A stretch of 64,000 nucleotides of DNA, from positions 27,224,401 to 27,288,400 of the forward strand of contig CM120641.1 of NCBI GenBank assembly GCA_051362555.1. Direction: 5' to 3'. The DNA comes from Lingula anatina. Its lineage: Eukaryota > Animalia > Brachiopoda. Shown piece after piece: positions 1 through 23,069 of the stretch (its first letter is position 1; every line of letters starts with the position of its first letter). The translations under genes and the position numbers were made by a program. Under the pieces are notes generated by a model. The model saw only the letters and a program-made list of their open reading frames with translations, searched no databases and was not told the DNA's origin.

Positions 1-1016
1 CACGTGAGGCAAGTAAAATATATAGGACACAGGCTTGAAAGAATTCTTATTTCTTAATTTTGCCTCGTATTGCTCGTTATGTTCTCATTTGGTGGCTGTG
101 GCGGTGAGGGGGGGGGGGGGGGGTAAGTGAGTCAGTAGCTACGAGAGAGGAACGTGCCTGCTGTAACTTTCCGATTTCCCCAGGTGATCACTATTCTTCT
201 TTAAAATGGAGGACTAATTACAAGACATATTATATATTAAAAATTTTAGGAAAAAATGTTGCGATATTTAGATAATATCCAACAAAAACCTTTTATTTCT
301 ACTTACCAGTATAACTTGCATGGGGAGTTAGGAACAACTACTGGCATTAATGCACTGACGAATCTGTTGTGATAGCACAAGAACTTGATTATAACTATAC
401 ATTAATAATACTGGCTGGGAACATAATAATATATGCTGATACAAATACGCGTGAAAATGTTGATTGTATTTACGGTTAAAGTCCACCATTATATTCCCAA
501 ACCAGAATGGATTTTTACAAATAAGCAAGGGATTTTGCCTTATAACTGTTGAAAAACTAATCCAATTTTCTATTATGCATACCGTGCAGTAATTGATAAC
601 ATACCTTCAGCATCTACATGTACTTAATTTTTTATGATTTTGCAAATAGATGTTCTCTTTTACATTTGTGTATATAAATAAAGCACCGGCACTTTGTGTA
701 CTGATTTAAATTTGCAGCACTTTTTCGTCATAATAATACTATGTTATTCTTTTCATTAGCTACTGCTCTCACTGTTCTTCTAAAATATATCTTAGCGTTT
801 CGTCGGTGACAACCTCATATAACAAGAAGACTAAAATTGGCTGTATAAATATTCTGCTGTTGTAAAGTGTGACAAAATATTATATTCCTAAGGATGTTGT
901 GGTGCATTTTCGTGTCTGATAAGATCTCTGTATGTACATTACCTTATATTTATGTTATATATGTTTATTTGACACTCTGAAAAAGTTACCCAGTTAATTT
1001 ATTTGACTTTTTCCAG

Positions 1017-4000
1017 GAACCCAAACCTGCCTGCCCCTGTTCTAACACAGTGGCCCAAGTACGACCATGTTCAGCGCGAATACCTCGACCTCAATGAGAA
1101 CATCACTGCCAAATCCAATCTCAAAGCACGTCGAGTTGCCTTCATGACCGACGTGCTTCAAAAGCTGGTGGAACTTCCATCGGAGGGAGTTTGTACAGAA
1201 ACGGGCGATGCCATGGATGACTTGGTTGTGAATACTTTTTACGGCAAAATCAGAGGGAAGCGTGAGGTCGTAAAAGAATGGTACTGGGAAATGTTTCTTG
1301 GCGTTCCCTATGCAGCTCCCCCCATAGGAGAACACCGATTTCTCCCACCAATACCTCCAAAAATGTGGAGCGGCATCCGAAATGCAACGGAATTAGGATA
1401 TTCCTGTCATGGAGGAGCGGTTTTTCCCTCACCCTCTCCTTTAACGTTCCACGAAGATTGTCTCACACTTAATATATATGTGCCTGCAGGAGTGCGAATG
1501 TGGAAAGACGAAAAACTTGCTGTAATGTTATTTATACACGGAGGTGCCTATGTGGTTGGATCAAGTTCAGAGTACGACGGAAGAGCACTTAGCTGGTACG
1601 GACGCGTCATTGTTGTCACCATAAATTATCGCCTCGGAATCTTCGGTTTCGCAAGCACTGGGGACCAGAATGCTCCCGGAAACGTTGGTCTGATGGATCA
1701 GAGTCTTGCAATGCGGTGGGTAAAACAAAACATAGCCTCCTTTGGTGGTGACCCCGAAAGAATAACTATATTTGGAGAATCGGCAGGTGCTGGAAGTGTC
1801 ATATACCAAATGCTTTCACCTATGAGTAAAGGGTTGTTCAAGCGAGCCATAGCAGAAAGCACATGGCTGGGAGCTTGGGACTTACATTTCATCGACCCAG
1901 CAAAAAAGAATAACATAGATTTGATACGCGAGTATGGCATTCATTTCAACTGCAGTTCTTCACCAGTAGACATGATAAGGTGCCTTCGTGATATCAATGC
2001 TTCAGATATAGCTCAATATGCCTCTGCAAACATGTTTTCTCTGCCATTAAAACTATTCACTCCAACTGTTGATCGTGAATTCATGCCCTATTCGCCATCC
2101 GAAACGTTCGATTTGCTTTTAAAATACAAAGACATGATTAAAGAAGATGACATGGTTGACCTACTTATTGGCACAAACAGTGGAGAAGGTTTGTCAGAGT
2201 CTTTTGGCGCAATATTAACGACGTTTCCCAATGGCTCTCAGACGACCAATGGATTAACAGAGAAAGAGTTCGACCAAATCATGAAAGCATATGTTACGCC
2301 AAGCGTAGGCAATAATCTTGAAATAATTCTACCCATGATCCAGAACGCTTATACCAACTGGGAGTCGCCAGACAATCCAATGAGACGACTTCGTGCTTTT
2401 CAAGACGTTATAAGAGATATCACATATGTGGCCGGGTCAGATTTGGCAGCACAGGTGCATTCTACCTTAGGAGGCAACACGTACGTGTATAGGTTTGCAC
2501 ACGAACCCAGTTTTGGCCATTTATTCCTCGGGACATATGGGCTGCCTACTGAACCAATCTATGGTTTAGCTGACCATGGGGAAGAACTTACCTACGTGTT
2601 TGGTCAGCCTTTATTCACTGATGTTGTCCCTATGAATGTTTCCTCAAGAGACGTTGAAGTGTCAAGACAAATGATAGCTTACTGGTCAAACTTTGCCAGA
2701 TATGGGTAAGGCCTTACAATACCGGAAGAATAGATGATACCGAAATCGTAGTGGTATTTTAATTAATTAAAATAAAATTTCTATTAATATTTAACTGTGA
2801 AGATCCTAAATAAACCTTTGAGACAAATAGGCAGAAATAATAATTTCAAGTCGAGATATAGAAAAATATTTCAGAAGTTTTTGATGTGACAATGATTTGC
2901 TGCCATAGGCCTACTGCCATTAGTAAAACAGATTTCTTTAAATTTCTGTAGTCCATTGAAATTATTACCTTGTGTATTTTCAGTTCTCCCAATGGTCCTA
3001 CAGTTCCAGTCCATTGGCCTCAGTACGAAACATCCATGACGTCATACATGTACATCGGAAACGAGACCGAAGTAAAACAAAATCTGGGTGGTTCCCGAGT
3101 CCAGCTATTGAAAAACGTAGTGAGACGCCTCGCTGACTCTGGCAATTGTCCTGCAACGTCAAAAACTATGTACACACCAGCTCCCTCTAACGGTTCGTGG
3201 ATAATGCAGTATATCATGCCGGATCAGCCTGAGGTCAATACCCGTGTTGGGCGTGTGAGAGGACTTGCTCTGCGGGCCAGCGCTTTTACTGGTGGAAAAG
3301 ATTTAGACCTTTTCCTAGGTATTCCCTACGCTAAGCCACCAACAGGTGATCGCAGATTCAAAAAGCCAGAACCATCAACTGCTTGGACTGAAACCCTCAA
3401 TGCAACAATGAGCGCACCACCTTGCCTTCAACTCCCGTCAGATTTTATGATGGTGCTTGGTTTGAATCACACCAGTGAAGATTGTTTATATGTGTCGGTC
3501 GTCGTGCCTCGAGGAACCGTAGTAAATGATAAGAAGCCTGTTGTTGCCTTAATTCATGGTGGCTTCTTTATAAACGGCAGTCCAGATGAACATTCACTGG
3601 GAATTTTCTCTTCTTTGGGCGATGTCATTACTGTAAGCATTAATTATAGACTCGGTATGCTTGGATTTATGTCGACTGGAGATGACACTTTGAAAGGGAA
3701 CCTCGGACTCTATGACATGGTGGCTGCAACAAAATGGATAAAAGAGAACATTGCTTCTTTCGGTGGCAATCCAGACAAAATAACCCTTTTTGGTACTGGA
3801 TCTGCAGGACTGGCAGTACTTAATATGATGGTCTCCCCTATGGCAAAAGATTATTTCCATCAGGCTGTCATCACGGGCCCTACCACGCCTTACGCTGCAC
3901 AAACGCCGGCTGCATTAGCGGAAATAAGCAGGAATTTTTCTGCTGGTATTGGATGCCGACAGGAATCGAGCTCAGAGCTTATAGAATGTCTGAGAAGTAA

Positions 4001-5314
4001 ACCAGCCGATGCATTCATTTACAAGGGAAATCCTTACCTGGCAAACCACGTATTCCTTGTCACTGATGGAGAACTAATAAAAAGTGATCTTGTAACAGCG
4101 TATACTACCAGTACTCAACTGAAGCCTCTTGTGATTGGAAGTACGTCAGACTATGCTGGTATCTTCCTTCAACAATATCTTGGTTACAGAGATTCTATGA
4201 CCCAGCAAGAAGTCGACGCTTCTATTGATATGACAATTGAAGCAGTTTTTCCCAAATCAGGAATGAAGGACCTTTTGAAAGCCATGATTAAACAGCAGTT
4301 TTTTTCATCAGAAATCAAAAATGATAAAGATAGACTGATGGCTCTCTTACACTTCTATAACAGCATGCACAAGTACGGCTGGTTGTATATGCTTGGTGTA
4401 GGGCACGCATCCCATGGTGGAGACGTGTATATGTACGAATTTAATCATCGTCCACAGTGGTCATGGTACCCCGAATGGATTGGCGCCACCTTCCGAGACG
4501 ACATCGGGTTTTTAGAAGGCTTACCGTTCGACAAACCACTTCTGGCTGAATTATCATTGTCAGTCACAGACCGAGAAGAAATGATCAGTGGGGCTCTCAT
4601 GTCGTATATCGGAAACTTTGTTGGAACAAGGTAGGCTGGCTAGGCATCATCAATAGTTTCTTGACTGATACATCTAGATTCGAGTTAAGATGTTAGCAGC
4701 AGATAAAAACCTGTATACTGAGCTAAAGAATTTTGGTCGTGTTTTGCGTATTTCAAATTTCCCATTATTGCAAACAAACATCGAATTTAACTTGATTATT
4801 ATACTTATTTACCGAAAGTATTTTATCAAAAATCCCTTCTTCTTTTTGTAGTAATCCAAACCAAGGCAATTTCCCAGTGTCCGTGGAATGGCCAAAGTTT
4901 GGTGAAGATGATCCAAACTACCTCTTGGCAGGTCTACGATTCATGGCAGCAGACATGAGGGACATGATGGGCCAAGAACAAATACGTTTCTGGCATGGTG
5001 AAGGAAAAAATAATTCCATACTGGACCAAGTTGCTACTATGAAGATGGACGCCCAAACAATGAGTACTTCAGCACCTACTATGCCCCCTGCTGCAACATG
5101 CCCACCCGCGTTGGGGAGCTCTGATTTCCTGAATTCAATGAATCTTGGTGTCAAAGGAGTAGAGGATCTTGTCTTGGCGCTCATTGTTATAGCTTCTGCG
5201 TTGGGTCTTTTCCTCATAATTGCAGTAGGGTATGTGTGCGTACTGAACGGCAGGGTTGGGAAACTTAAACAAGCTGCTTTCTCTACATCAAAGACTGAGC
5301 TATCCAAGATGTGA
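1017..5314 (+). CDS. Multi-domain carboxylesterase (type B/cholinesterase fold) membrane protein, copy 1; 5'-partial (first exon lies upstream of the window)
   Basis: Exons B1 1017-2705, C1 2984-4630 and D1 4852-5314. All introns are GT-AG phase 2 and restore G|NPN or S|NPN-type junctions. B1 has EDCLTLN, HGGAY, GESAG, GTNSGEG and ADHGEE. C1 has EDCLY, but FGTGSAG and ATFRDD in place of the catalytic motifs. D1 has a Thr/Pro stalk, a TM helix (LVLALIVIASALGLFLIIAVGYVCVL) and a short tail. Confidence 0.9.
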
Positions 5315-6175
5315 AGTGGAAATTTGCAAAATTTATATTTAATCAATCATTCAATGAGGAAATGAAAATAGTATTTGAGAAATGAAACAAAGAAAGACAT
5401 GTTTCGGTGTACAAACAAATTTTTAAGAAAACGCTTAAAGAAACAAAAAAAGAGTAGGAGTATTTTGTTAATACTGAAATACATTCTACCTCGTTATTCT
5501 TTTGTTTTATATATTCATCAACTATGTTTAGATATAAGATGGGAAATTTATTGTTCAATGAAAGTTTTTGATTCCATTATAAGGTTATTTGAAGTTAGAT
5601 ATGATTTCCATACTTTGTTAAGAAAGTACTTATTCGAATTACCCTATTATACAATATGTATTAACGGTTTTGTTATTTAAAAGGACGACGGATCTATAAT
5701 ATAGAATGATTACATTGTGGATTAAGGAAATGCTTTAGTTGAGAATTTAAAATAAGAGAAAATATGCATATTACTCTGGAATTCCGTCGTGTATCCATAC
5801 TTTATTTGGAACACTAAACGACGATCGACTTTCTTCTCAGTAGGTCGTTTCATTGCGTTAAGGTCCTAACAGGGTGATAGCTACAGTACAGGACATACTT
5901 TACCCATTTACAACAACTGGGCAATAAGTAAAAGGTGCGGCCCTTTTCGTAATTAGGTTATACCATTTTCACCCATTTGTGTCAAAGCTTGACTAAAGTT
6001 TTATAATTATTTCTGTGATTAATTCTATAGTAAATAAACGGATTGAACAGATCATTAATCTGCATGGTTATTTTTAGTCAATAGGTTTCCAATTTTAATC
6101 AACATCATAGAGATACTATGTAAAAGACAAATTTTGGGCACACGTTGAGCAATGCCTGCAGCTGCCTTTCAGAAT

Positions 6176-6310: not shown

Positions 6311-7096
6311 ATGGCTCAGACTTGAGTGTTATTGTCCAAGGGGTCCATTTCACGCATTTGCCTCTCACCTTCTGCCACCTGTTCACATTACATCATATAT
6401 CATATATCATAAACTAAATATTGTGAGGGAGAAGAATGATAGATCTGAAAACTGTTTGAAAGATATTTGTTATTTTATGAGATGTATTTTTAATTCAATT
6501 CTCTTGAGTGTCGTTAAGGTAATGCACAAAAGCTCAGTTTAAGGTCCTCTTCACGGATATGTTTTTTTTTTCTGAGAAAAAGGGCAATTATTGCCTAACC
6601 ACGAATCATTGCCTGATCCGTCCATGCACTTGGATTCGAAATCTTACTCCATTTTTAATTTGACAATTGAGTTCTAGATGACTGACCAGTTATTAAGAGC
6701 GACATCTGTCTCAACGTGCATTACCTCGTTTTCACACAAGAAAATGGCGCGGTGTTTTGTATCTCATACAGCCGTTGCGAGTTGTCAATGACTGCCCGAG
6801 AATTCCAAGTAAATAATGCCGACACTAGGTTCCCTTCAGAAAAGAATTTAAAGGGTAATATCGCCCTCAAGGTCCAAATGGGGATATCTTGACATGACAC
6901 AAATATGCCCGTGGCGGATTACTTAACTGCGTAGACATCCTTTAAAGCAAATATTTACCACTAATATGTTACTGTTTGACAATAAGATTAAGAGATAGTT
7001 GTATTGAGGGTCAATTGTATAAGAAGACACAAAGTAGTTCTTCCGACATTTTGGTAAAGCTATCCCTAACGTTACCCAAACGGGTGTACCAGAAAT

Positions 7097-8505
7097 ATGT
7101 TCAATACTATAATCCCTGTGGTCTTCCTCTTTCAAGTTGCCTATTCACAGAGTGTTGTTCAAGTTCAGCAGGGCGATGTAATCGGCACAACAAAAACGAT
7201 TGGTAACACGACGGTGCATGCATACCTTGGGATACCCTATGCCGAGCCACCCCTAGGTGACCTACGGTTCAAGAAACCAGTACCTAAGGCTGCTTGGAGT
7301 TCCCCACTGAATGCCACCGAGTATGGACCGATATGCTTTCAAATGAACGCCATGTTTCCTAGCTCTGAGGACTGTCTGACACTTAATGTTCACGTACCAC
7401 AGGATAATAACACCGCCCCTAAAGCGGTCATGGTTTGGGTTCATGGCGGAGGGTTTGTCGTGGGCAGTGCCAGAGCAATGGATCCTGTAGGTCTAGCCCT
7501 GGCAGACGTTATCACAGTTAGTGTCAACTACCGTTTGGGCATGTTTGGCTTTCTTACTATCGTGGACGAGGTAAAAGGTAATTTCGGACTTTGGGACCAA
7601 CACCTCGCTTTCAGATGGATAAATAATAACATTGCTGCCTTCGGAGGGGACCCCAACAGAATCACGATATTCGGAGAATCTGCAGGCGGTATGAGCGTGT
7701 CTTTCCATGCTATGTCTCCAATGAGTAACGGACTGTTCCATCGTGTCATAAGCCAAAGCGGGGTTGGCAGTCAATATTTTGTCCTTCGACCGAGTCCCAC
7801 AATTATCACTTCTCTGAGCAAAACTTCGAATTGTAACACCACCGATTCGGCGGCTTTGCTATCTTGTCTTAAAGGTAAAAGTGCCCAAGATCTTCTTGCT
7901 GTCTCTAATACCTTTGAACAGTATTGGAGGCCAAACATGGATAACGAGTTTATAACTGGAAACGTTGAAAGCTCATCAAACCTTCTGCCAGAACAATATG
8001 GAAACCTTGATTTTTTGATGGGAAGTAATAGTCGTGATGGTACTGTCGGAATCGCGGTGCCTTCCGAAGCTGAAAATGGTTATACAGAGTCAACTTTCCG
8101 CAGATATGTCGACCGTATGTTAACTGGGAGATTGGACAAAGATATCATTGAAAGGGCGTTGATACAAGAGTACACTGCAGATGTCTGTAATCCAGATAAC
8201 AGAACGCGCGTACAGCAAAAAATAGAAATCTCTACGGACCTCTTTTTTACAGTCCCTACCGAGTTGAACGCTCTCAAACATGACAGAACCAACGGTACTG
8301 GTTCCACGTTCGTATATTTTCTCTCCATAAACACGTGCCACAAACTACCGCCCACGGTGTCTTGGCTTGATGGAGCTGGACATGCCGACGACCTAATCTA
8401 CATTAATGGTCTGGTTAGTGTTTTGTGCAACGGTAGCGCAACACCTGCTGATTTTGCCCTACAGACTGCTATGATAACTTATTGGACCAACTTTGCTAAA
8501 TCTGG
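7097..8505 (+). CDS. Carboxylesterase first exon A1 (signal peptide plus most of domain 1)
   Basis: ATG at 7097, signal peptide MFNTIIPVVFLFQVAYSQ, motifs HGGG, GESAG, GSNSRDG and GAGHADD. Ends ...NFAKSG with phase-2 donor GG|GTAAG at 8505/8506, compatible with the exon B2 acceptor at 18138. Confidence 0.85.
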
Positions 8506-9386
8506 GTAAGTTATTCAGTTAAGAATACGAGATTTTTACTGTGGTTTGAAGCAGGCTATTGACATCTGACATGGCAAAGGTAACACAGATATGTTAACAG
8601 GGGAATTTCATGCTTTGAGAGATAAATCATAGTTCCCTTTATAGCAAGTTAAGTTTCCATAAATGAATAAAGTTTTTCTAATCAATAGCGTTGAACACCC
8701 AAACCCAATATAGAGGTGCATTTCACAAGTTCAAGCCTCAAAAAATGAAATTGAATGAATTCGATGTATTATCCAATTTTTTAAAACTTGCATGTGTATA
8801 GAACAAAAATCTACAAATGTCCCAATTTTACGACCACGCGTTTCTGTTTTGTAAGCAAATAAATTGATAACCGTTTGAAGTAAAAAAGCATAAGAAAGAA
8901 CATACGTTAACACTAAATCGCCTGATACAAACACGATCATTAGTTGAGCGCTGTGGAAATTTGTGCAAGCTAAACACTATCAGAACCCTAAGAGTCATTA
9001 ATAATGGAAAAGTGATAGGAAAATACATTTAAATTGACCAGATCTAGGAAAATTACTTTCAAACTAAAGATCATTTTTCTTTACAATGTCCACGTTGATG
9101 ACTCTTTCAATAGCAGTAATTGTCAATTGTATAGAGAAATGAAAACTTTGTTACCTAAAAGTTATCTACCACTGGTCATATTCGTCGTGAATTTAAAACT
9201 CATTGACAGTTTCAAATTTTGGGTTTATTAGTTACAATACCAACTACGCCTCGCATCCTTCGCATTCCGTAATGTAACGTACGTTCCACAGCCATAGAAA
9301 AGATACGGGACACGAGTTCAATAAATATTGATAAGATATTTTTTTCGCTTTTTTTCGTAAAAAGACATCAAAAGTGATAACCTTGG

Positions 9387-9534
9387 GGGCTTCGTATCTC
9401 GAAAGGTTCGCTATGTTGCGCACGTGCGCAAGTGTCTCGATTCCATGGTCCCGTATGTCGAAATAGAATCGGTTATGGAATTGAGACGCTTTCGCACGTG
9501 CGCAACACAGCGAACCTTTCGAGATACGGAGCCC
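9387..9534. mobile_element. Foldback MITE with ~60-bp arms
   Basis: GGGCTTCGTATCTCGAAAGGTTCGCT...TTCCAT is the near-perfect inverse of ATGGAA...AGCGAACCTTTCGAGATACGGAGCCC. Confidence 0.8.
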
Positions 9535-9893
9535 AGGATTTTGTTAGGAAGGATGAGAAGCAAAATGATTTTAACGACGGAGGGCATTTTACTAAAACAC
9601 AATGGACACAGGCATAAAAGAATTCTTAGTTTTGCCTTGTTTTGCTCGTCATGTTTTCATTTGGAACATTATTTTAAAAAATATTTACCGAACAAGCTGA
9701 AGTGTAGCCTCAATTACTAAAAATATTTATTTGATATGGAAAATTTGCTTGAACCAGTCTTATTTTATTAACACTGTGAATGACACATTCTCCATCGTCA
9801 TCGTTGAATTACCATTATTATTACATCCCTAATCTTATTTAACAATCTTATTGTTTAGGCCTGGTTTAAGTTTGTTTAAGTAATGATAGCCAT

Positions 9894-10050
9894 CCCCGGC
9901 AGGCAAAGTCGCGTTGGATCAACGTTGCAAACAGGTTGATACGTTGAATTGCCGTTGTTCTACCTAAATTCAACCTAAAATCAACGTTGATCCAGCCACG
10001 TCGAAACACCGTCATAATGTGACGTTGACGCAACGTTGTAGTTTGGTCAT
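9894..10050. repeat. Repeat fragment with multiple (A)ACGTTG motifs, resembling DNA-transposon subterminal repeats
   Basis: CAACGTTG/CGTTG recurs many times within ~150 bp. The family is not assigned. Confidence 0.45.
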
Positions 10051-11223
10051 GGACACAACCTTGCAGACATGAATTGTAATTTAAAATATTAATTGTTGAA
10101 AACGTGATACTTTGTTTATCAATACTGTAACTAACTTTATCATAATTCTGACCATTGCTGATCTCCTCCGGTACCCTTTATTGACCGTACTTTATATAGT
10201 GTGATCACACTGTCAGTCTTCCTCATGTTGCACGCTGCAGTTAAATTGTCCTTGCGCCACTGCTAAATATTTTCTTCTATTCTGTTGTTTATATAAACCT
10301 TCTCATTTATTTTTGAATATTATAATCTCATTACCCATTGTGCGCTCTTAGAAACGGGGGATTTAGCAATATGCCTCATAACTATTACAGGACGCCCTTT
10401 TTTCTTATTGTTGTTAAAAAATGGACGTTAGTTTGTCGAGGTTTATTGCTTAGCTCTTAACGCGTTATATTTATGTGCATCTAAACGATATGTCAGTTTT
10501 TACTTGACTGATATTTCCCCTTGTCGCAAGTATGCTTTCTTACTACATGCGATCTAAAACAGGTCGTTTGTGTATCTAAAATCTGGCCGACAGGACGTAT
10601 CTCCACAGCAGCCGGACACACAGTAACTGTGAAGTCATGGTTTTAAAGCTTGTTTGAGAATGATAACAACCGCGTTTAACAATACATTGCGAGCTATAGT
10701 ACCCCCTCCTCTTTAAGCGTCGTACTATAATGTAAAGGCGACAAGTTATCAGATTGTCAGGCTTTTTCCCTGTCGCACATTGGTCTTCAATTATCATGTC
10801 CCCATTCTACCACATTAGTCTTACATGTAGTGTGTTATGAGAAGCGGAGGATTTCTAACACAGCAAAAGAAATGGGGGTGCGGGGGGGGGGGGGTACAAC
10901 ATCAAAAGGATTTTTAAAGGAATTGCCTAATAGGTTGATGTGTTATTTGAACCAAAACGATTTCCTGAAGATCAAATTAAAAATTAATATCTATTCCAAA
11001 AAAGGTGTATATTAAAATATCAATGAGTTTGCATTTAATGTTATCCCTCCTTAAGGGGCCATGTGCTGATTATAATGGCACACCTTGATGCTAAACAGTC
11101 TATCGTTTCTTCCACCTTGGGTCCCTTATATTCAAGTACCATATTGTATTACTCATATTCAGGCCTACCCACATACCAGACTCGGCACATAAGGATCCTG
11201 ACTTACCCGGTATATCGGACCAC

Positions 11224-11370
11224 ACTACCCGTTTTCAAGGTGTGTGTCAGATCGCATTTCGGAATATCATATCCCGAACAAAGTTTGTAGGACGACCGCA
11301 AGCTCATCCTGTCGGTGTTCTGACTGATACTCCGAAATGCGATCTGACATAAACCTTAAAAACGGGTAGT
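11224..11370. mobile_element. Foldback MITE
   Basis: ACTACCCGTTTTCAAGG...TGTCAGATCGCATTTCGGA is inverse to TCCGAAATGCGATCTGACA...CCTTAAAAACGGGTAGT. Confidence 0.8.
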
Positions 11371-11498
11371 CCTAAATTGCTATCAGCCGAGCTCGCACAG
11401 AAGTTAATTATCCCTTTACAGCTTTTAGTAGGCGGGACAGACATTTAAACAGCTAAGCTGACAGCAATCTAGTGAGACTCCCAACAGGGATAGATCGA
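11371..11498 (+). mobile_element. Partial (right-half) copy of the MITE family found at 52924-53360
   Basis: CCTAAATTGC...CAGCCGAGC...AGTTAATTA...TTACAGCTTTTAGTAGGCGGG...GCTAAGCTGACAG..ATCTAGTGAGACTCC matches 53208-53336. Confidence 0.8.
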
Positions 11499-11996
11499 AT
11501 CATTACCTGACCCGTCCGTGCACTTGGATTCGACGTCTTACTCCATTTTTAATTTAACATTTATTGATGACTGACCAGCCATAAAGAGCGGCGTGTGAGA
11601 AAATGGTGCGGTGTTTTGTATCGCAACTCTGCACCGTGTATCATGCAGCCGTTGCAAGTTGTCAATGACTGGCCGAGAATTACCCCAAGATAATGCCGAC
11701 ACAAAGTTCGCTTCAGAAAAGAATTTTAAGGGTATTATCGCCTTAAAGGTCCAAATGGGGATATCTTAACATGATACAAATATGCCCGTGGCGGATTATT
11801 TAACAGCGTAGACATCCTTTAAAACAAATATTTACTACTGATATGTTAATGTTTGACAATAAGATTAAGAAATAGTTGTATTGAGGGTCAATTGTATAAG
11901 AAGACACAAAGTAGTTCTCCCGACATTTTGGTAAAGTTATCCCTACCGTTACCCAAACGGGTATACCAGAAATATGTTCAATACTATTATAATCTC
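11497..11996 (+). promoter_or_regulatory. Duplicated upstream/putative promoter region of the A-type exon (copy of 6603-7115)
   Basis: Alignable from GAATCATT(G/A)CCTGA through ...CCAGAAATATGTTCAATACTAT in both places. Promoter function is inferred from position only. Confidence 0.7.
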
Positions 11997-14024
11997 CAGG
12001 GGCGGATTTAGGCCGTCTTCTGGGTCTTCCGGAAGACGGTCAAATTTTAAAGTTTACACTGACGGGTATCTAATATTTTCTGTCGGAAGACGGTCAAAAA
12101 TGGAGGATGGATGAACAAAAATAATTTGGAAGACTGTCAGAAAATATATTATCGGACCCGCAGGGTCAAGTACAATACCGGGTATTTTGCTTTATTTATT
12201 AACGTGATCAAACAATGGCCAGCTTTACCCGCGAAGAAGCTGGATTGTGCAATACTGACTTGTCATTCACTACGGTTCTCTCGTACCTTCATGTAAACAG
12301 AGGTGTGTTGACACTGCACTCTACCAGGCACGACGGGTTTTCTATACATTTAGATAAAGAACAGCAGTGGAGTGCAGTCGCACAACCCTGGCTTTTGTAC
12401 AAAATGATACCGTTCAGTGCATGTGTGTTGTTCTGTGTAATCCTCCATGCTGACACCTCCTTTGCTCAGAGAAGAGTCACTGTACAGCAAGGAGATATCA
12501 ATGGGAAAACATCAATTCTTGGATCGGACGTGATCTCCTATCTTGGGATACCCTACGCTGAACCTCCTTTGGGTGATCTACGATTCAAGAGACCAGTACC
12601 TAAGGCTGCTTGGAGTTCTCCACTGAATGCCACTGAGTATGGACCGATATGCCTGCAAATGAATGCCCGATTTCCCAGTTCCGAGGATTGTCTCACACTT
12701 AATGTTCATGTACCGCAGAATAATAACACCACCCCTAAAGCAGTCATGGTTTGGGTTCCTGGCGGAGGGTTTGTCTCGGGCAGCGCCAGAGCAATGGATC
12801 CTGTAGGTCTAGCCATGGCAGACGTCATCACAGTTAGTATCAACTACCGTTTGGGCATGTTTGGCTTTCTTACTATTGCGGACGATGTAAAAGGTAATTT
12901 CGGACTTTGGGACCAACACCTCGCTTTCAGATGGATAAAAGACAACATTGCTGCCTTTGGAGGGGACCCCAATAGAATCACGATATTCGGAGGATCTGCA
13001 GGCAGTATGAGCGTGTCGTTCCACGCTATGTCTCCAATGAGTAACGGACTGTTCCATCGTGTCATAAGCCAAAGTGGGATTGGCACTCAATATTCTGTCC
13101 TTCGACCTAATCCCACAATTGTCACTTCTGTGAGCAAAACTTCAAATTGTAACACCACCGATTCGGCGGCTTTGCTATCTTGTCTTAAAGGTAAAAGTGC
13201 ACAAGATCTTCTTGCTGCCTCTAATACCCTTGGACAGTTGCTTATTTGGAGGCCGTATGTGGATAACGAATTTATAACTGGAAACGTTGAAAGCTCATCA
13301 AATCTTCTACCAGAACAATATGGAAACCTTGATTATTTGATGGGAAGTAATAGTCGTGATGGTACTGTCGGAATCTTTGTGCCTTCCGAAGCCGAAAATG
13401 GTTATACAGAGTCAACTTTCCGCAAACATGTCGACCGTATGTTAACTGGGAGATTGGACAAAGATATCATTGAAACGGCGTTGATACAAGAGTACACTGC
13501 AGATGTCTTTAATCCAGATAACAGAACGCGCGTACAGCAAAAAATAGAAATCTCTACGGACCTCTTTTTCACAGTCCCTACCGAGTTGAACGCCATCAAA
13601 CATGACAGAACCAATGGTACTGGTTCTACGTTCGTATATTTTCTCTCCATAAACACGTGCAACAAAATTCTGCCCACGGTGTCTTGGCTGGATGGAGCTG
13701 GACATGTCGACGAACTAATTTACATCAATGGTCTGGTCAGTGTTTTGTGCAACGGTAGCGCCACACCTGCTGACCTAGCCCTACAGACTGCCATGATTAC
13801 CTATTGGACCAACTTTGCTAAATCTGGGTAAGTGATAAATACTTGTTCTAAATACATGGCATACGACAGGGGCGGATTTTGGCCGTGTTCTGGGAGACGA
13901 CCAGATTTTCAAGTTTACATTGACGGGTATGTAATTTTTTCTGACGAAATACGGTGAAAATGGTGGATGGATCAACAAAATTAATTTGGAAGACTGTCAG
14001 AAAATATCTCTGGATCCAGCCCTG
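11997..14024 (+). mobile_element. Composite, gene-carrying non-autonomous element: two direct MITE copies (11997-12147, 13867-14024) enclosing exon A2
   Basis: Starts CAGGGGCGGAT and ends ATCCAGCCCTG (imperfect TIR). Flanked by ATCTC at 11992-11996 and 14025-14029. Confidence 0.8.
12404..13827 (+). CDS. Carboxylesterase first exon A2 (different signal peptide), carried inside an insertion
   Basis: ATG at 12404, MIPFSACVLFCVILHADTSFAQ. Motifs PGGG, GGSAG, GSNSRDG and GAGHVDE. Phase-2 donor GG|GTAAG at 13827/13828. Confidence 0.8.
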
Positions 14025-17000
14025 ATCTCTGTGGTCTTCCTCTTTCAAGTTGCCTATTCACAGAGTGTTGTTCGAGTTCAGCAGGGCGATGTGATCGGCA
14101 CAACAAAAACGATTGGTAACACGACGGTGCATGCATACCTTGGGATACCCTTTGCCGAGCCACCCCTAGGTGACCTACGGTTCAAGAAACCAGTACCTAA
14201 GGCTGCTTGGAGTTCCCCACTGAATGCAACCGAGTATGGACCGATATGCCTGCAAATGAACGCCATGTTTCCTAGCTCTGAGGACTGTCTGACACTTAAT
14301 GTTCATGTACCGCAGAATAATATCACCGCCCTTAAAGCAGTCATGGTTTGGGTTCATGGCGGAGGGTTTGTCGTGAGCAGTAGTAGAGAAGAGGACCCTA
14401 TAGGTCTAGTCCTGGAAGACGTCATCAAAGTTAGTGTCAACTACCGTTTGGGCATGTTTGGCTTTCTTACTATTGGGGACGATGTAAAAGGTAATTTCGG
14501 ACTTTGGGACCAACACCTCGCTTTCAGATGGATAAAAGATAACATTGCTGCCTTCGGAGGGGACCCCAACAGAATCACGATATTCGGAGAATCTGCAGGC
14601 GGTATGAGCGTGTCTTTCCATGCTATGTCTCCAATGAGTGACGGACTGTTCCATCGTGTCATAAGCCAAAGCGGGGTTGGCAGTCAATATTTTGTCCTTC
14701 GACTAAGTCCCACAATTATCACTTCTCTGAGCAAAACTTCAAATTGTAACACCACCGATTCGGCGGCTTTGCTATCTTGTCTTAAAGGTAAAAGGGCCCA
14801 AGATCTTCTTGCTGCCTCTAATACCTTTGAACGGTTTTGGAGACCAAACATGGATAACGAGTTTATAACTGGAAACGTTGAAAGCTCATCAAACCTTCTG
14901 CCAGAACAATATGGAAACCTTGATTTTTTGATGGGAAGTAATAGTCGTGATGGTACTGTCGGAATCGCGGTGCCTTCCGAAGCTGAAAATGGTTATACAG
15001 AGTCAACTTTCCGGAAATATGTCGACCGTATGTTAACTGGGAGATTGGACAAAGATATCATTGAAAAGGCGTTGATACAAGAGTACACTGCAGATGTCTT
15101 TAATCCAGATAACAGAACGCGCGTACAGCAAAAAATAGAAATCTCTACGGACCTCTTTTTTACAGTCCCTACCGAGTTGAACGCTCTCAAACATGACAGA
15201 ACCAATGGTACTGGTTCTACGTTCGTATATTTTCTCTCCATAAACACTTGTCACAAACTACCGCCCACGGTGTCTTGGCTTGATGGAGCTGGACATGCCG
15301 ACGACCTAATCTACATTAATGGTCTGGTTAGTGTTTTGTGCAACGGTAGCGCCACACCTGCTGATTTTGCCCTACAGAATGCTATGATAACTTATTGGAC
15401 GAACTTTGCTAAATCTGGGTAAGTTATTCAGTTAAGAAAACGAGATTTTTACTGGGGTTTGCAGCAGGCTATGGGCATCTGACATGGAAAAAGTAACACT
15501 GATATGTTAACAGGTAAATTTCATGCTTTGAGAGATAAATCATAGTTCCCTTTATAGCAAGTTACGTTTCTTTAAATGAATAAAGTTATTCTAATCAATA
15601 GCGTTAAATCGTATAAAAGTACGGCTGGCTATCACATAAATGTATTTTTATACTTACTGTTATATTTACTCAGGTGATCTGTACATGATCACATTTTATT
15701 ACCTTATATTCTCTGCTTTTCACGAGAAACAGAATAAGCAATAAGTAATAGTGCTTTGTGTTTTATAATAATCATTACGACCTTAAATGTATTAAATACC
15801 TGTAATTTTAGTTTCTCAAACCTCACCCATCGATATTTTCATTATAATACTTACATATTTAAGGCCCGTAGTCATTTGCGATATTGTGATAATGTGTATA
15901 GAGCACTACCAGGTTTTAAAATTACAACTGTTTTGTACGGGGAAATAATCATTAAACACGATACCCACTTTCGCAATAAAAATTCGCCAATACTGTAGCG
16001 TCTGATTTTTCAAATTTTTTCGCTCACCATACGTTCATCCATGTATTTCTCCGTGTACATGTATCACCCATTCACTTCAAAGTAAACAGTGTATCATAGC
16101 GCAAATAAGGAAACGTATATGTATTTTCATGGGTATGGGCATCGTTAACTACAATGTAACCGTAAAAGAGAATGTAATATAGAATAAAAGATTCAAAACA
16201 GTTTTCATATGTCAGAAAGTAACGGGTCAAAGACTGGGGTTAAAAGCCAGTTTTAATCACTTATTATACACTTGGTTATAACCAAGGGAGCAATTCAATA
16301 GGTTTATATAAAAGCGCTATACTAGAGAATCAAAAACAAACTGACGGACAAAAGTAGGTGCCTGTACAATTAAGCAAATGATGGTTTCTGCATTGTTAGA
16401 AGTTTACACCCCCAACATGTACGCCCAGCTCTTGACCCCATCTGATCTTTTTGTTATATAATAATTATTAGCAGTCATTTTATCAGGTTCAAAAATATTG
16501 AGTAGACTTACAGTGTCGAGTTCCGATTATTAATCTGCACAGGTAACCTCCGTCCTAGATTTTCACCCTCTTTCGTCCCGCTACCTGTAACCCTAATCTA
16601 TGTGAATATTATGGTTGGCATAGTCTAAGTGACATTGGCCTTTGCTTTCTTAACACCGAGCATAATTTTAAAAATAAATTGTAGAGCTAGGTTCGACGAC
16701 GGCATGAACGAGGGCATTAACCGCGCAAACATAAAACAAATTCTAAAATAATGTTACATTAGCATTTAACCAATATATCCCTTATCCTATATTTTCCCAA
16801 AATGTATTATAAATGTATTACAAAAAAGAGCCATTTTATCAATGTTCCATGCTGTCAGAGGTTATGATGTACACTAAGTACAAACATACAAGCAAACCAT
16901 GCATACAAACTGGCAGCTCACCTGTAAATTACTTGGGCAATTTACATGCTCATTATGTTATTTACAATGCAAAGACACAAATGGGATGTGGCCTGGACCA

Positions 17001-17216
17001 TGTCCTGATTGGGATGTGGTCTGGACCACTTAGGAAGTGGACTAAATTGGGATCTGGCCTGTGATATACACGTTAGACAAGTGTTGTTTGTAGAGTTGAA
17101 TGATGTACTGAGACAGAATTTCTGAACACTGGCGATCCAGGATTTTGTTCAGAAGGATGAGAAGCAAAATGATTTTAAAAAATTAAACGACGGAGGGCAT
17201 TTTACTAAAACACAAA

Positions 17217-20200
17217 GGACACAGGCATGAAAGAATTCTTAGTTTTGCCTTGTTTTGCTCGTTATGTTTTCATTTGGTGTTGGGGGTGGGGGGTAGGTGC
17301 GTCAGTGGCTTCGATATACATTATAAATAATACGAAATATGTTTTGATAGTCAAATAATATCCAACAAAACATTTTATATGTTCATACCAGTATTTCTCG
17401 TAGGAACAACCACTGACATTAATGCATAAGGAATCTGTTGTGATACTACAAGAACATGATGATAACTATATATGTATAATACTGGTTGAGAACTTCATAA
17501 TATATTCTTATACCAATAAACTTGAAAATGGCGAAAAATTTAAGTTGCTTGTATTAACAATTTAACTCAGTTATTCATTACTTCTTTAACCATTATATCC
17601 CCGAACCAGAATGCGATTTTTGTCAGGGCAATTTGTCTTATAAGTGTTGAAAAAAATCAATTTCCCTACTATGCATACCATGCAATGATTGATAACATAC
17701 CTTTAGCATCTACATGTATTTTATTTCTTATGATTTCGCAAATAGATGTTCTCTTTTACATTCGTTTATCTAAATGAAGCACTGGCACTTTGTGTACTGA
17801 TTAACACTTTCAGCACTTACAGCAAAATAATACTACATCTTTCTTATCGTTTGCTACTGTTTTTTCTGCACTTCTAGAAATATATTGTCGTTTTGTCAAT
17901 GAAAAACTCAATAGATCAAATTTGCAGTGGTAAATACTTTTACTGTGGTGATATTTCCCCACAAAAACGCCCAAAATTTGAGAGAAAATTGCTTATGTTT
18001 CTAAGGATGTTTTAGTGCATTTTTGCGTCTGATAAGATGTCTGTAAGTACCAACATAATAACCATATATTTATTAAATGGATGTTTATTTGACACTTCGA
18101 AAAAGTTACTCAGTGTATGTATTTGACTTTTTTCCAGGAATCCAAACCAGCCTGCCCTCGTGGCAACACAGTGGCCCAAGTACGACCATGTTCAGCGCAA
18201 ATACCTCGACCTCAATGAGAACATCACTGCCAAATCCAATCTCAAAGCACGTCGAGTTGCCTTCATGACCGATGTGCTTCAAAAGCTGGTGGAGCTTCCA
18301 TCTGAGGAAGTGTGTACAGAAACGGGCGATGTCATGGATGACTTGGTTGTGGATACTTTCTACGGCAAAATCAGAGGGAAGCGTGAGGTCGTAAAAGAAT
18401 GGTACTGGGAAATGTTTCTTGGCGTTCCCTATGCAGCTCCCCCCATAGGAGAACACCGTTTTCTCCCACCAATACCTCCAAAAATGTGGAAAGGCATCCG
18501 AAATGTAACGGAGTTAGGATATTCCTGTCATGGAAGAGCGAATTTCACCTCACCCTCTCCTTTTAAGTTCCACGAAGATTGTCTCACACTTAATATTTAT
18601 GTGCCTGCAGGAGTGCGAATGTGGAAAGACGAAAAACTTGCTGTAATGTTATTTATACACGGAGGTGGCTATGTGGCTGGATCAAGTTCAGAGTACGACG
18701 GCAGAGCACTAAGCTGGTATGGACGAGTTATTGTTGTCACCATAAACTATCGCCTCGGAATCTTTGGTTTCGCAAGCACTGGGGACCAGAATGCTCCTGG
18801 TAACGTTGGTCTGATGGATCAGAGTCTTGCAATGCGGTGGGTAAAACAAAACATAGCCTCTTTTGGTGGTGACCCCGAAAGAATAACTATATTTGGAGAA
18901 TCGGCGGGTGCTGGAAGTGTCATATACCAAATGCTTTCACCTATGAGTAAAGGGTTGTTCAAGCGAGCCATAGCGGAAAGTACATGGATGGGAGCTTGGG
19001 ATTTACATTTCATCGACCCAGCAAAAAAGAATAACATAGATATGATACGGAAGTATGGCATTCATTTCAACTGCAGCTCTTCACCAGTAGACATAATAAG
19101 GTGCCTTCGTGACATCGATGCTTCAGATATAGCTCAATATGCCTCTAAAGACTTGTTTTCTTGGCCACTCAGATTATTCACTCCAACTGTTGATCGTGAA
19201 TTCATGCCCTATTCACCATCCCAAATGTTCGATTTGCTTTTAAATAACAAAAACTTGGTTGAAGATGATGACATGGTTGACTTACTCATTGGTACAAACA
19301 GTGGAGAAGGATTGAGTCAGTCTTTTGACTTGATATCAAAGATGTTTCCCAATGGTTCTCAACTGACCAATGGATTAACAGAGAAAGAGTTTGGCCAAAT
19401 CATGGAAGCATATGTTACCGAAAGCGTAGGCGACAATCTTAAAATAATTCTACCCATGATCCAGAACGCTTATACCAACTGGGAATCACCAGACAATCCA
19501 ATGAGTCGTGTTCGCACTCTTCAAGACTTAATAGGAGATATCTCATTTGTCGCCGGGTCAGATTTGGCTGCACATGTGCATTCTACTCTAGGTGGCAACA
19601 CGTACATGTATAGCTTTGCACACGAACCTAGTTTTGGCCATCCCTCCCTCAGGCTGCTTGGGCTGTCTACTGAACCAATTTATGGTTTGGCTGGCCACGG
19701 TGATGAACTTACCTTTGTGTTTGGTAAGCCTTTATTCACTGATGTTGTTCCTAGGAATTTTTCCTCAAGAGACGTTGAAGTGTCAAGACAAATGATAGCT
19801 TACTGGTCAAACTTTGCCAGATATGGGTAAGCGCTTACAATACCGGAAGAGTAGATTATACCTAAATAGTAGTGGTATTAATGAATTTTTTATGTTTAAT
19901 TGTGAAGACCTTAAATATACCTTCGAAACAAGTATGCAGAAATAATAATATAAAAAAATATTTTGTAAAGCTCTCAAATTATATATATGATGTGACTTTG
20001 ATTTGCTGCTATAATGTCATCAGTAAAACGGATTTTAAAAATATTTATGTACTTCATTTTCAGTTCTCCCAATGGCCCTACAGTTCCAGTCTTTTGGCCT
20101 CAGTACGAAACATCCATGACGTCATACATGTACATCGGAAACGAGACTGAAGTAAAACAAAATCTGGGTGGTTCCCGAGTCCAACTATTGAAAAACGTAG

Positions 20201-22425
20201 TGAGACGCCTCGCTGACTCTGGCAATTGTCCTGCAATGTCAAAAACAATGTACACACCAGCTCCCTCTAACGGTTCGTGGATAATGCAGTATATCATGCC
20301 GGATCAGCCTGAGGTCAACACCCGTGTTGGGCGTGTGAGAGGACTTGCTCTACGGGCCAGCGCTTTTACTAGTGGAAAAGATTTAAACCTTTTCCTAGGT
20401 ATTCCCTACGCTAAGCCACCAACAGGTGATCGCAGATTCAAAAAGCCAGAACCAACAACTGCTTGGACTGAAACCCTCAATGCAACAATGAGCGCACCGC
20501 CTTGCCTTCAACTCCCGTCAGATTTCATGATGGTGCTTGGTTTGAATCGCACCAGTGAAGATTGTTTATATGTGTCCGTAGTCGTGCCTCGAGGAACCGT
20601 AGTAAATGATAAGAAGCCTGTTGTTGCCTTAATTCATGGTGGCTTCTTTATAAACGGCAGTCCAGATGAACATTCACTGGGAATTTTCTCTTCTTTGGGC
20701 GATGTCATTACTGTAAGCATTAATTATAGACTCGGTATGCTTGGATTTATGTCGACTGGAGATGACACTTTGAAAGGGAACCTCGGACTCTATGACATGG
20801 TGGCTGCAACAAAATGGATAAAAGAGAACATTGCTTCTTTCGGTGGCAATCCAGACAAAATAACCCTTTTTGGTACTGGATCTGCAGGACTGGCAGTACT
20901 TAATATGATGGTCTCCCCTATGGCAAAAGATTATTTCCATCAGGCTGTCATCACGGGCCCTACCACGCCTTACGCTGCACAAACGCCGGCTGCATTAGCG
21001 GAAATAAGCAGGAATTTTTCTGCTGGTATTGGATGCCGACAGGAATCAAGCTCAGAGCTTATAGAATGTCTGAGAAGTAAACCAGCCGATGCATTCATAT
21101 ACAAGGGAAATCCTTACCTGGCAAACCACGTATTCCTTGTCACTGATGGAGAACTAATAAAAAGTGATCTTGTAACAGCGTATACTACCAGTACTCAACT
21201 GAAGCCTCTTGTGATTGGAAGTACGTCAGACTATGCTGGTATTTTCCTTCAACAATATCTTGGTTACAGAGATTCTATGACCCAGCAAGAAGTCGACGCT
21301 TCTATTGATATGACAATTGAAGCAGTTTTTCCCAAATCAGGAATGAAGGACCTTTTGAAAGCCATGATTAAACAGCAGTTTTTTTCATCAGAAATCAAAA
21401 ATGATAAAGATAGACTGATGGCTCTCTTACACTTCTATAACAGCATGCACAAGTATGGCTGGTTGTATATGCTTGGTGTAGGGCACGCATCCCATGGTGG
21501 AGACGTGTATATGTACGAATTTAATCATCGTCCACAGTGGTCATGGTACCCCGAATGGATTGGCGCCACCTTCCGAGACGACATCGGGTTTTTGGAAGGC
21601 TTACCGTTCGACAAACCACTTCTGGCTGAATTATCGTTGTCAGTCACAGACCGAGACGAAATGATCAGTGGGGCACTCATGTCGTATATCGGAAACTTTG
21701 TTGGAACAAGGTAGGTTGACTGGGCTCCATAGTCACAAAATCAATAGTTTCTTGTATGATACATGTAGTTGGATTCGATTTTAGATGATAGCAGTAGATC
21801 AAAACCTGTATACTGAGTTAAAGAATTTTGGTCGTATTGTGCGTTTTTCAAATTTCCCTTTATTACAAACAAACATCGAATTTAACTTGATCATCATTGT
21901 AATTTACGGATAGTATTTTATCAACAATCCTTACTCCCTTTTGTAGTAATCCAAACCAAGGCAATTTCCCAGTGTCCGTGGAATGGCCAAAGTTTGAGGA
22001 AGATGTTCCTAACTACCTCATGGCAGGTCTACGATTCATGGCAGCAGACATGAGAGACATGATGGGCCAAGAACAAATACGTTTCTGGCATGGTGAAGGA
22101 AAAAATAATTCCATACTGGATCAAGTTGCTACTATGAAGATGGATGCCCAAACAATGAGTACTCCGGCACCCACTACGCCCCCTGCAGCAACATGCCCAC
22201 CCGCGTTGGGGAGCTCTGATTTCCTGAATTCAATGAACCTTGATGTCAAAGGAGTAGACGATCTTGTCTTGGCACTCATTGTTATAGCTTCTGCGTTGGG
22301 TCTTTTCCTCATAATTGCAGTAGGGTATGTGTGCGTACTAAACGGCAGGATTGGGAAGCTTAAACAAGCTGCTTTATCCACTTCAAGGATTGAGCTAACT
22401 AAGATGTGAAATGAAAATTGAAAAA
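17217..22425 (+). repeat. Tandem segmental duplicate of ~26-5345
   Basis: Upstream intron, exons B/C/D and the two short introns are colinear with an offset of ~17.1 kb. Homology ends just after the stop codon. Confidence 0.95.
18138..22409 (+). CDS. Multi-domain carboxylesterase membrane protein, copy 2, downstream exons B2, C2, D2
   Basis: Exons 18138-19826 (1689 nt), 20064-21710 (1647 nt) and 21947-22409 (463 nt), the same lengths and phases as copy 1. With A1 the total is 5208 nt, or 1735 aa. Confidence 0.9.
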
Positions 22426-23069
22426 TTGTGCCTTTTTGGTCAGCTAAACATGTGTCCATTGCACATATTGAAATAACTTCTTGCCAGTATACGTCAAATA
22501 TGATAATGTCATCTTATATATCTTATTCGGATTGAGAAATAATTGCACACTGATGATTAATATCCAGATGAAAAAATGAAATAATTCAGGTTCTAAATCC
22601 TTTTACATGATCTTCTTAAAGTTTACATGTTTTACTTTAGCTTCTTTTTGATTATTAAACCTTAAATAAATCTGTTTCACGAATCTGTAAAACGGAGATG
22701 AGCCTCGTGGAGTTAGGTCGAAAATTGAAAAAAAAGCTTGGTTATTAATTTTAAGGTTTATGGGCCATGGTTTGCAATTTTAACGTTTTAACAAATATTA
22801 TATTGACAGTCTAATTATGGCAACACGGTCTAAGGGTAAAAGGGTTAATTTAAAGGGACAGGGTACTCAGATATATAAAGGTATATCTATTTTTGTACTC
22901 CTGTCTGTAACAGTTCTAAGTTATAGATAAAACAACTTATTTAAGGCAGACTGAAAAAGACACGTGACCGCTTTGAATCCCTAGATACGCTTTGAGCAGA
23001 TCAATATCGATTTCAAATTAAATATGAGCCGATTTCAAAATTAACGTTAAAAAAGTAATGACGACACTG

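What the first reader, a model, noticed from the sequence alone, without database searches (positions are those of the whole stretch)
6603..18138. Possible variable-first-exon / constant-exon cassette (UGT1A- or protocadherin-like) for esterases
Seen: three paralogous A exons end in the same phase-2 donor (TCTGG|GTAAG), yet only one B-C-D set follows. A1 and A2 have their own ATG and signal peptide, and the upstream region is duplicated (6603-7115 vs 11497-11996). The last ~45 residues of the domain A fold (NPN..WPKY..YLDL) are encoded by exon B, so each A exon needs B to complete the fold. Known: UGT1A and clustered protocadherins diversify by promoter choice of variable first exons spliced to shared exons. 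Inference: a young version of this design, producing isoforms with different distal catalytic domains.
Basis: inference. Interest (0 to 1): 0.75.

Follow-up and report, generated by a model that had tools for sequence, protein, structure and literature searches.

The report
Transposon swaps an esterase front exon
In the lamp shell Lingula, two neighbouring three-domain esterase genes are preceded by several intact copies of their large first exon, which are likely spliced one at a time onto a shared tail; in this genome a small transposon-bounded insert carrying one such exon, probably copied from the first gene, sits inside and breaks a first exon of the second gene, which would give a new enzyme combination.

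Summary
The duplicated upstream region (11497-11996) belongs to A3, not A2. It holds A3's ATG and the start of its signal peptide, cut off by a 2,028-bp insert (11997-14024): MITE, exon A2, MITE, flanked by a 5-bp direct repeat. Database models from Lingula anatina show A3 intact on B2-C2-D2, and show A2 and a fourth exon (A0) as alternative fronts on the identical tail B1-C1-D1 of the upstream gene. So both genes probably use a UGT1A-like variable-first-exon layout, with five A exons 71-94% identical. In this haplotype a MITE-bounded event likely copied A2 across and knocked out A3. A1 and A2 show purifying selection, and exon B supplies the last ~50 residues of the A fold. Not shown: no A-to-B splice was seen in four RNA runs, whose depth was too low, and the database models A1 as a stand-alone unspliced gene. 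The scan's earlier, unreviewed notes list five similar first-exon arrays in this genome, so the layout is not unique here. The cassette transfer is the new part.

The parts
1017..2705 (+). Exon B1 of upstream gene copy 1: tail of domain A plus core of esterase domain B (Ser, Glu, His motifs present)
   Evidence: 98.2% to residues 476-1037 of P0001 and P0111
2984..4630 (+). Exon C1: tail of domain B plus core of domain C, with Gly at the nucleophile Ser position and Phe at the His position (predicted inactive)
4852..5314 (+). Exon D1: tail of domain C, stalk, predicted membrane anchor, stop
6603..7096 (+). Upstream region of A1, putative promoter and 5' UTR; TATAAG at -79 from the ATG
   Evidence: motif match only, not tested
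7097..8505 (+). Exon A1: ATG, hydrophobic leader, esterase core with Ser-Asp-His motifs, phase-2 donor; the donor carries an in-frame TAA if unspliced
   Evidence: 98.1% to RefSeq P0113, modelled as a stand-alone 470-aa protein
11497..11996 (+). Upstream region and first codons (ATG 11974) of exon A3, cut off from the rest of A3
   Evidence: head matches the N-terminus of intact RefSeq P0112
11992..11996 (+). Left copy of the 5-bp direct repeat ATCTC (likely target-site duplication)
11997..12159 (+). Left MITE copy: intact left end, similarity to the right copy ends at 12147, right tip missing or degenerate
   Evidence: many unrelated flanks end at 11997 in reads and contigs
12160..12403 (+). 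Upstream sequence carried in with A2 (about 240 bp, putative own promoter and 5' UTR)
   Evidence: unrelated to the A1/A3 upstream region; function not tested
12404..13827 (+). Exon A2: own ATG and leader, esterase core with Ser-Asp-His kept but Pro before the oxyanion glycines and Gly before the Ser, phase-2 donor
   Evidence: 99.6% to the first 474 residues of P0111, where it is modelled on B1-C1-D1
13867..14024 (+). Right MITE copy, 158 bp, both terminal inverted repeats present; 11% substitutions against the left copy
14025..14029 (+). Right copy of the 5-bp direct repeat ATCTC
14025..15418 (+). Body of exon A3: open frame and donor intact, no start codon or full leader in place
   Evidence: 98.9% to P0112 residues 8-470
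18138..19826 (+). Constant exon B2: last ~50 residues of domain A plus core of domain B; 1,689 bp, phase 2-2
20064..21710 (+). Constant exon C2 (predicted inactive domain); 1,647 bp, phase 2-2
   Evidence: splice to D2 seen in 5 reads (X18) and 4 reads (X20)
21947..22409 (+). Constant exon D2: tail of C, stalk, predicted transmembrane helix (exon residues 107-125), short tail

Best explanation
Two tandem genes for a predicted membrane-anchored three-domain carboxylesterase are preceded by several intact large first (A) exons, which are likely used one at a time from their own promoters and spliced to shared exons B-C-D; in this haplotype a 2,028-bp MITE-A2-MITE insert lies in the signal-peptide codons of A3, and it probably carried A2 over from the first gene. 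Shown: exon structure, frames, the insert, its terminal repeats and 5-bp flanking repeat, the intact A3 and the A2-on-B1 gene models in the database, and purifying selection. Inferred: (1) each A exon has its own promoter; (2) cap-proximal splicing joins it to B, which completes the fold; (3) isoforms differ in the outermost catalytic domain, with differences clustered in loops that align with the oxyanion-adjacent and acyl-pocket loops of cholinesterases (loop roles recalled); (4) this haplotype would make A1-B2C2D2 and the new A2-B2C2D2 but not A3-B2C2D2. Two routes fit the insert. One is gap repair of a MITE already inserted in A3, copying the nearby donor cassette and returning through a MITE in the donor intron (about 0.5; it explains why the left copy is cut at the junction). 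The other is one-step transposition of a composite using the outer ends of two MITEs (about 0.35).
For: Split head and insert. Intact allele in a database assembly: P0112, 1,736 aa, the same length as the window's A3 form with the insert removed, with the extra Ile of the A3 head. A2 is 99.6% identical to the front of P0111, whose tail is 97-99.6% identical to B1/C1/D1 and only 87.5% to B2. X1 and X2 share a 1,278-aa tail. Five A-type exons, 71-94% identical, all end at the same residue. Synonymous excess: A1-private changes 10 of 17 (p=0.0015), A2-private 43 of 75 (p=1e-10), A1 vs A3 20 of 51 (p=0.007). The MITE is a multi-copy element with edges at 11997 and ..CCCCTG: 52-79 contigs per run with unrelated flanks before 11997 in 4 of 4 DNA runs. 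Elements with the same termini in metagenome contigs have an exact 5-bp flanking repeat in 35 of 119 loci, against 0.58 in shuffles. B2 residues 1-54 match BChE 479-533.
Against: No A-to-B joint was listed in 4 RNA runs. The constitutive B-C joint was not listed either, so the test had no power, but splicing of A1 or A2 to B2 is unshown. The database models A1 (P0113) and A4 (P0114) as stand-alone unspliced proteins, and the X1/X2 isoforms are automated models whose read support I could not see. The genomic position of A4 relative to B1 is not known to me beyond the shared scaffold length. Promoters rest on one TATA-like motif. Gene conversion among A exons (A2 is A0-like at the front and A1-like in the middle) could produce part of the synonymous excess. 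Neither the empty nor the filled insertion junction appears among the rows shown for DNA runs (15 of 82 joints and 32 of 27,676 pieces shown), so the insert rests on the window's assembly alone. The metagenome elements share only the termini with this MITE (no interior BLAST hit), 14 of 119 have 8-bp repeats, and some loci are duplicates.
Confidence: 0.6

Rival explanations
1. Duplication debris: only the A exon nearest each B is used; A1 and the moved A2 are silent leftovers kept open by youth and gene conversion, and copy 2 in this haplotype may be a null or near-null allele.
For: RefSeq leaves A1 and A4 unjoined. RNA depth on A1 was above zero in one bin of one of four runs. Conversion-like mosaic pattern. 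The A2 move is very recent (2 of 474 residues differ from P0111), so selection need not have tested it.
Against: Two modelled isoforms share one tail. Five open exons down to 71% identity keep the donor position and catalytic His motif. A1-private changes are 10 synonymous to 7 non-synonymous.
Confidence: 0.15
2. The A exons are mutually exclusive internal exons behind one shared non-coding first exon (vertebrate BCHE has such a non-coding exon 1; recalled, my paper search for it found nothing), so the choice is made by splicing, not by promoters.
For: An AG lies 4 bases before the ATG of A1 and A3, with a CTAAC at -31 in A1.
Against: No pyrimidine tract there. About 300 bp upstream, with a TATAAG at -79, is co-duplicated. 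A2 has an unrelated upstream region without such an AG next to the ATG.
Confidence: 0.1
3. Extra A exons work as stand-alone single-exon genes for secreted one-domain esterases, ending at the TAA inside the unused donor.
For: P0113 (470 aa) and P0114 (477 aa) are modelled this way. A sea-urchin isoform (P0136) also stops two residues after the same boundary motif.
Against: The product lacks Pfam positions 473-515, the equivalent of BChE 479-533, which is part of the solved fold. The GTAAG donor is kept in all three window exons.
Confidence: 0.07
4. The MITE-A2-MITE insert is an assembly error that joined copy-1 sequence into A3 across repeat copies.
For: No independent record spanning the two junctions was visible. 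The locus is rich in repeats and paralogues.
Against: The junctions fall exactly on transposon termini with a 5-bp repeat typical of such ends. The two MITEs are only about 160 bp and differ by 11%. Removing the insert and one repeat copy gives the length and head of the independent intact model.
Confidence: 0.08

Closest known systems
Vertebrate UGT1A, UGT2A and GCNT2 variable-first-exon clusters (PMC1885805, passages read)
   Same: [quoted passage not shown]
   Different: A hydrolase, not a transferase. The variable exon holds the whole catalytic triad of one of three tandem domains, and the constant part holds a second predicted active domain and a predicted inactive one. Few cassettes per gene, two gene copies. 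Promoter choice is not shown here.
Clustered protocadherins and chelicerate sDscam 5' cassettes (PMC4835542, abstract and section list read)
   Same: Tandem 5' cassettes before shared exons; an invertebrate precedent for the layout.
   Different: Those are adhesion molecules with many more isoforms; sDscam cassettes have two or four exons. No stochastic single-cell choice is implied here.
Pack-TIRs in animal genomes (Tan et al. 2021, PMC8277862; abstract, passages and section 8 read)
   Same: Host sequence between terminal inverted repeats with a target-site duplication; donor probably nearby on the same chromosome; gap filling is their main route for single-copy cases.
   Different: There the filler sits in one element whose halves nearly add up to one copy (median gap 4.6% of the element). 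Here it sits between two nearly full copies and is a complete coding cassette with upstream DNA and donor, placed in front of a paralogous constant region.
hAT5-type DNA transposons with 5-bp target duplications (PMC9004415 and PMC12730594, passages read)
   Same: 5-bp flanking repeat; reported from invertebrates.
   Different: No transposase was found here, so the superfamily of this MITE is not established; other groups also make 5-bp repeats.
Type-B carboxylesterase/cholinesterase family (Pfam PF00135); Lingula anatina LOC106179609 and LOC106179598
   Same: Three COesterase domains per protein; the window's exons are 97-99.6% identical to these models.
   Different: Uncharacterised. The window's haplotype differs from the modelled one by the A2 insert in A3. 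Multi-domain esterases also occur in fish, molluscs and echinoderms, but no whole first-domain swap on an identical tail was seen in the 20 non-Lingula pairs compared by shared ends (5 of them aligned).

Membership tests
Variable-first-exon/constant-exon cluster (UGT1A type) | Tandem paralogous large exons with own ATG and signal peptide, same frame and donor | tested here: met
   A1 and A2 in the window; A3 only in the database allele
Variable-first-exon/constant-exon cluster (UGT1A type) | One set of constant exons needed to complete each product | tested here: met
   One B-C-D set after the three exons; B supplies the last ~50 residues of the fold
Variable-first-exon/constant-exon cluster (UGT1A type) | More than one variable exon is spliced to the same constant exon in transcripts | tested here: inconclusive
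   Database models join A0 and A2 to B1; no A-B reads in 4 shallow RNA runs; A1 modelled unjoined
Variable-first-exon/constant-exon cluster (UGT1A type) | Each variable exon has its own promoter | not testable with these tools
   Only a TATA-like motif and co-duplicated upstream DNA; needs CAGE or 5' RACE
Variable-first-exon/constant-exon cluster (UGT1A type) | Variable exons kept by selection | tested here: met
   Synonymous excess for A1 and A2; A3-private changes not different from neutral (8 of 24, p=0.16); gene conversion not excluded
Pack-TIR / composite non-autonomous DNA transposon | Host sequence enclosed by terminal inverted repeats of a multi-copy element | tested here: met
Pack-TIR / composite non-autonomous DNA transposon | Target-site duplication at the outer ends and an empty-site allele | tested here: met
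   ATCTC on both sides; intact allele inferred from protein P0112, not from DNA
Pack-TIR / composite non-autonomous DNA transposon | The whole unit moved by a transposase in one step | tested here: inconclusive
   Gap filling into an earlier MITE insertion gives the same picture; donor DNA lies outside the window and no genome is held
hAT5 | 5-bp target duplication | tested here: met
hAT5 | hAT5 transposase or match to a classified family | not testable with these tools
   Non-coding element; no repeat library or genome available
Type-B carboxylesterase (PF00135) | Profile match above cut-off | tested here: met
   356-432 bits per exon against a cut-off of 27; three stretches in the full-length models
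Type-B carboxylesterase (PF00135) | Ser-acid-His triad | tested here: met
   Present in A1, A2, A3 and B by alignment and motif; not met for domain C (Gly for Ser, Phe for His). No activity measured.

The most novel reading that the evidence does not exclude
Lingula esterases use UGT1A-like first-exon arrays, and a composite of two MITEs can lift a whole cassette (promoter, exon and donor) from one array and drop it into the paralogous array, so that animals in one population differ in which catalytic front domain is joined to which tail. This would be a caught-in-the-act, still polymorphic route for building and reshuffling variable-exon clusters, possibly behind the several such arrays noted in this genome.
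Probability: 0.25. Interest if true: 0.72.

Novelty: new variant of a known kind. Interest (0 to 1): 0.5.

Why it matters
Variable-first-exon clusters are usually explained by tandem duplication in place. This locus shows a recent transfer of an entire cassette between two paralogous genes, bounded by transposon ends, with both the intact and the disrupted state available for comparison. If the splicing is confirmed, it adds a hydrolase to the short list of enzyme families built this way (I found none described in the searches) and gives a simple PCR-testable case of exon shuffling that changes an enzyme's domain combination.

Tried and rejected
No genome is held for this window, so the donor region upstream of B1 could not be read. 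RNA: no indexed RNA holder was listed; 4 of the 9 listed raw-read RNA runs were laid, 6-30% of each read. Depth on esterase exons was 0-4, the only splice listed was C2-D2, and neither A-B nor B-C joints reached the 3-read floor, so this says nothing on splicing. My first impression that these reads came from copy 1 did not hold: 6 of the 17 listed differences on B2/C2/D2 match copy 1 and 11 match neither copy. DNA contigs (4 runs): the tables were dominated by repeats and cut, and neither junction could be judged; summed depth is not used as copy number. Splicing the insert out as an intron: no credible in-frame donor near the left edge (7 GT/GC-AG pairs, none consensus-like). A2 spliced to A3 to give four domains: no good phase-2 acceptor seen at the start of A3 (by eye), and A2 would lack its tail. 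A longer A2 N-terminus from the upstream ATG in ORF 12203: other copies carry a 2-base insertion at 12298, so it is rejected. Paper searches for multi-domain or Lingula carboxylesterases gave nothing relevant (listings only), and the BCHE exon search gave 0 papers. PDB search at E 1e-100 gave 0 hits. Earlier-finding look-ups near the locus, by sequence and by words were empty. No structure was predicted. Supplements were not read.
Full report
What is in the window. Self-comparison shows two copies of a B-C-D block (231-5333 vs 17315-22427, 88.7%) and three A exons between them. All A, B and C exons match Pfam COesterase over profile positions 2-471 of 515. Every junction is phase 2, and B and C have lengths divisible by three. 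The first 54 residues of B2 match butyrylcholinesterase 479-533, and a full-length model aligns across the A/B boundary to a solved carboxylesterase. So each exon carries the tail of the previous domain and the core of the next. Domains A and B keep the Ser, acid and His motifs; domain C has Gly and Phe at the Ser and His positions; D has a 19-residue hydrophobic stretch. The product is predicted to be a membrane-anchored, three-domain ecto-esterase of about 1,735-1,740 residues.

The duplicated upstream region 11497-11996 ends in an ATG (11974) that matches the start of A1 and continues in A3 at 14025-14030. Between them lie 2,028 bp: a MITE-like copy from 11997, about 240 bp of unrelated upstream DNA, exon A2, 39 bp of an intron unlike that of A1 and A3, and a second MITE copy 13867-14024. 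The outer ends are inverted repeats, and ATCTC stands on both sides; a 5-base match has a chance of about 0.001 by composition. The element is multi-copy: in 4 of 4 DNA runs, 52-79 contigs carry unrelated flanks before 11997, and 10-17 carry them after the right end. Among 120 metagenome loci with the same termini (1 dropped for a short flank), 35 of 119 have an exact 5-bp flanking repeat and 14 an 8-bp one, against 0.58 and 0.12 in shuffles. These share only the termini with the window's element, and some are duplicates. In place, the ATG at 11974 reads 46 codons and stops, and the next in-frame ATG of A3 is inside the domain, so A3 is very likely dead in this haplotype.

Database relatives. 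The best hit among 110 long relatives is Lingula anatina LOC106179609, 78% identical; the other listed hits are about 30-50%. Its cluster has 3 members. P0111 (isoform X2) is A2 (99.6%) on B1-C1-D1. P0001 (isoform X1) is another A exon, A0 (82% to A2), on the same tail; the two share the last 1,278 residues exactly. P0112 (LOC106179598) is A3 with an intact head on B2-C2-D2, 1,736 aa, the length obtained when the insert is removed from the window in a script. So in that assembly copy 2 has A1 and an intact A3, copy 1 has A0 and A2, and A4 lies somewhere on the same scaffold. These are automated models, and I could not see their read support. P0112 differs from the window at 5 of 463 residues in A3 and 4 of 562 in B2, so it is another haplotype.

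Age and selection. Non-coding DNA around A1 and A3 differs by about 7%, matching dS 0.066; introns of the two gene copies differ by 13-17%; A1 vs A2 has dS 0.22-0.28. A2 differs from its database counterpart at 2 of 474 residues, so the transfer is recent. Changes private to A1 are 10 synonymous and 7 non-synonymous (p=0.0015 against neutrality), to A2 43 of 75 synonymous (p=1e-10), to A3 8 of 24 (p=0.16). A2 is A0-like in its first 120 residues and A1-like in the middle, which points to gene conversion and weakens these tests somewhat. Variable columns among the five A exons cluster at alignment positions 121-140, 221-280, 321-360 and 381-400, and are rare at 61-100 and 161-220. By alignment to cholinesterase these blocks include the segment after the oxyanion glycines and the loop before the conserved Pro-x-x-Asp; that these line the substrate gorge is recalled, not tested.

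Expression. No indexed RNA holder was listed. Four of nine raw-read RNA runs were laid on 6420-22500. Two showed almost nothing on the esterase exons; two showed depth of about 1-4 on B, C and D and below 1 on the A exons. The only splice listed was C2-D2 (5 and 4 reads). DNA contigs from four runs hold the A3 upstream region in 4 of 4 runs and pieces over the A1 upstream region in all four (only X1 without differences), but the shown rows include neither insertion junction.

How it most likely works. Each A exon likely has its own promoter, and transcription from it is followed by splicing of its donor to the next B acceptor, since the other A exons offer no good acceptor in frame. The products would share domains B and C and the anchor and differ in the outer catalytic domain. 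This is the logic of UGT1A (PMC1885805, passages) and of chelicerate sDscam (PMC4835542, abstract). In this haplotype the insert removes A3 from the menu and offers A2, giving a combination (A2-B2C2D2) absent from the database models. For the origin of the insert I favour gap repair at a MITE already sitting in A3, the main route reported for single-copy Pack-TIRs in animals (PMC8277862, section 8), because the left copy breaks off at the junction. One-step movement of a two-MITE composite fits almost as well. All of this paragraph is inference.

Novelty and score. The layout is a known kind. I found no paper on it for carboxylesterases or on these Lingula genes (open-access library only). The scan's own unreviewed notes list similar first-exon arrays in this genome for androglobin, two opsin loci, an EGF-TIR receptor and an UNC-93 protein; I did not check them. 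The new element is the recent, transposon-bounded transfer of a whole cassette between paralogous genes. With splicing and promoters unshown, I score interest 0.5.

Noticed in passing
window 24840-33435 (+): Exons of a claudin/PMP-22-like four-helix membrane protein; weak Pfam matches below cut-off.
   Followed up: partly
window 51038-52405 (+): Collagen triple-helix exons followed by a type IV collagen C4 (NC1) domain exon.
   Followed up: partly
window 57377-58695 (-): Shisa N-terminal domain exon and, further along the same strand, an ORF with a hydrophobic stretch and a Pro-rich tail; probably one Shisa-like gene.
   Followed up: partly
window 42712-43963 (+): Two basic, low-complexity ORFs without a Pfam match.
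   Followed up: no
window 11253-11498, also 53058-53343: High-copy repeat that ends exactly where the duplicated A3 upstream region begins; another repeat starts near 8693-8720 where the A1/A3 similarity ends.
   Followed up: no
window 12404-13827: A2 has Pro before the oxyanion glycines and Gly before the catalytic Ser, also in database P0111; it may have altered or reduced activity.
   Followed up: no
window 20065-21708 vs 2985-4628: The predicted inactive domain C is far more alike between the two gene copies (dS 0.047, dN 0.006) than B (dS 0.19) or the introns (13-17%), which suggests gene conversion or strong constraint.
   Followed up: no
window 18139-22409: RNA reads carry 11 differences that match neither gene copy, so other alleles or a third copy may exist.
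   Followed up: partly
L001-L120: Elements with the same 11-bp termini show two target-repeat classes, 5 bp (35 of 119) and 8 bp (14 of 119).
   Followed up: partly
P0002, P0161-P0163: Fish ces2b models with four or five tandem esterase domains whose isoforms differ along internal domains, suggesting switching between tandem units; may be model artefacts.
   Followed up: no
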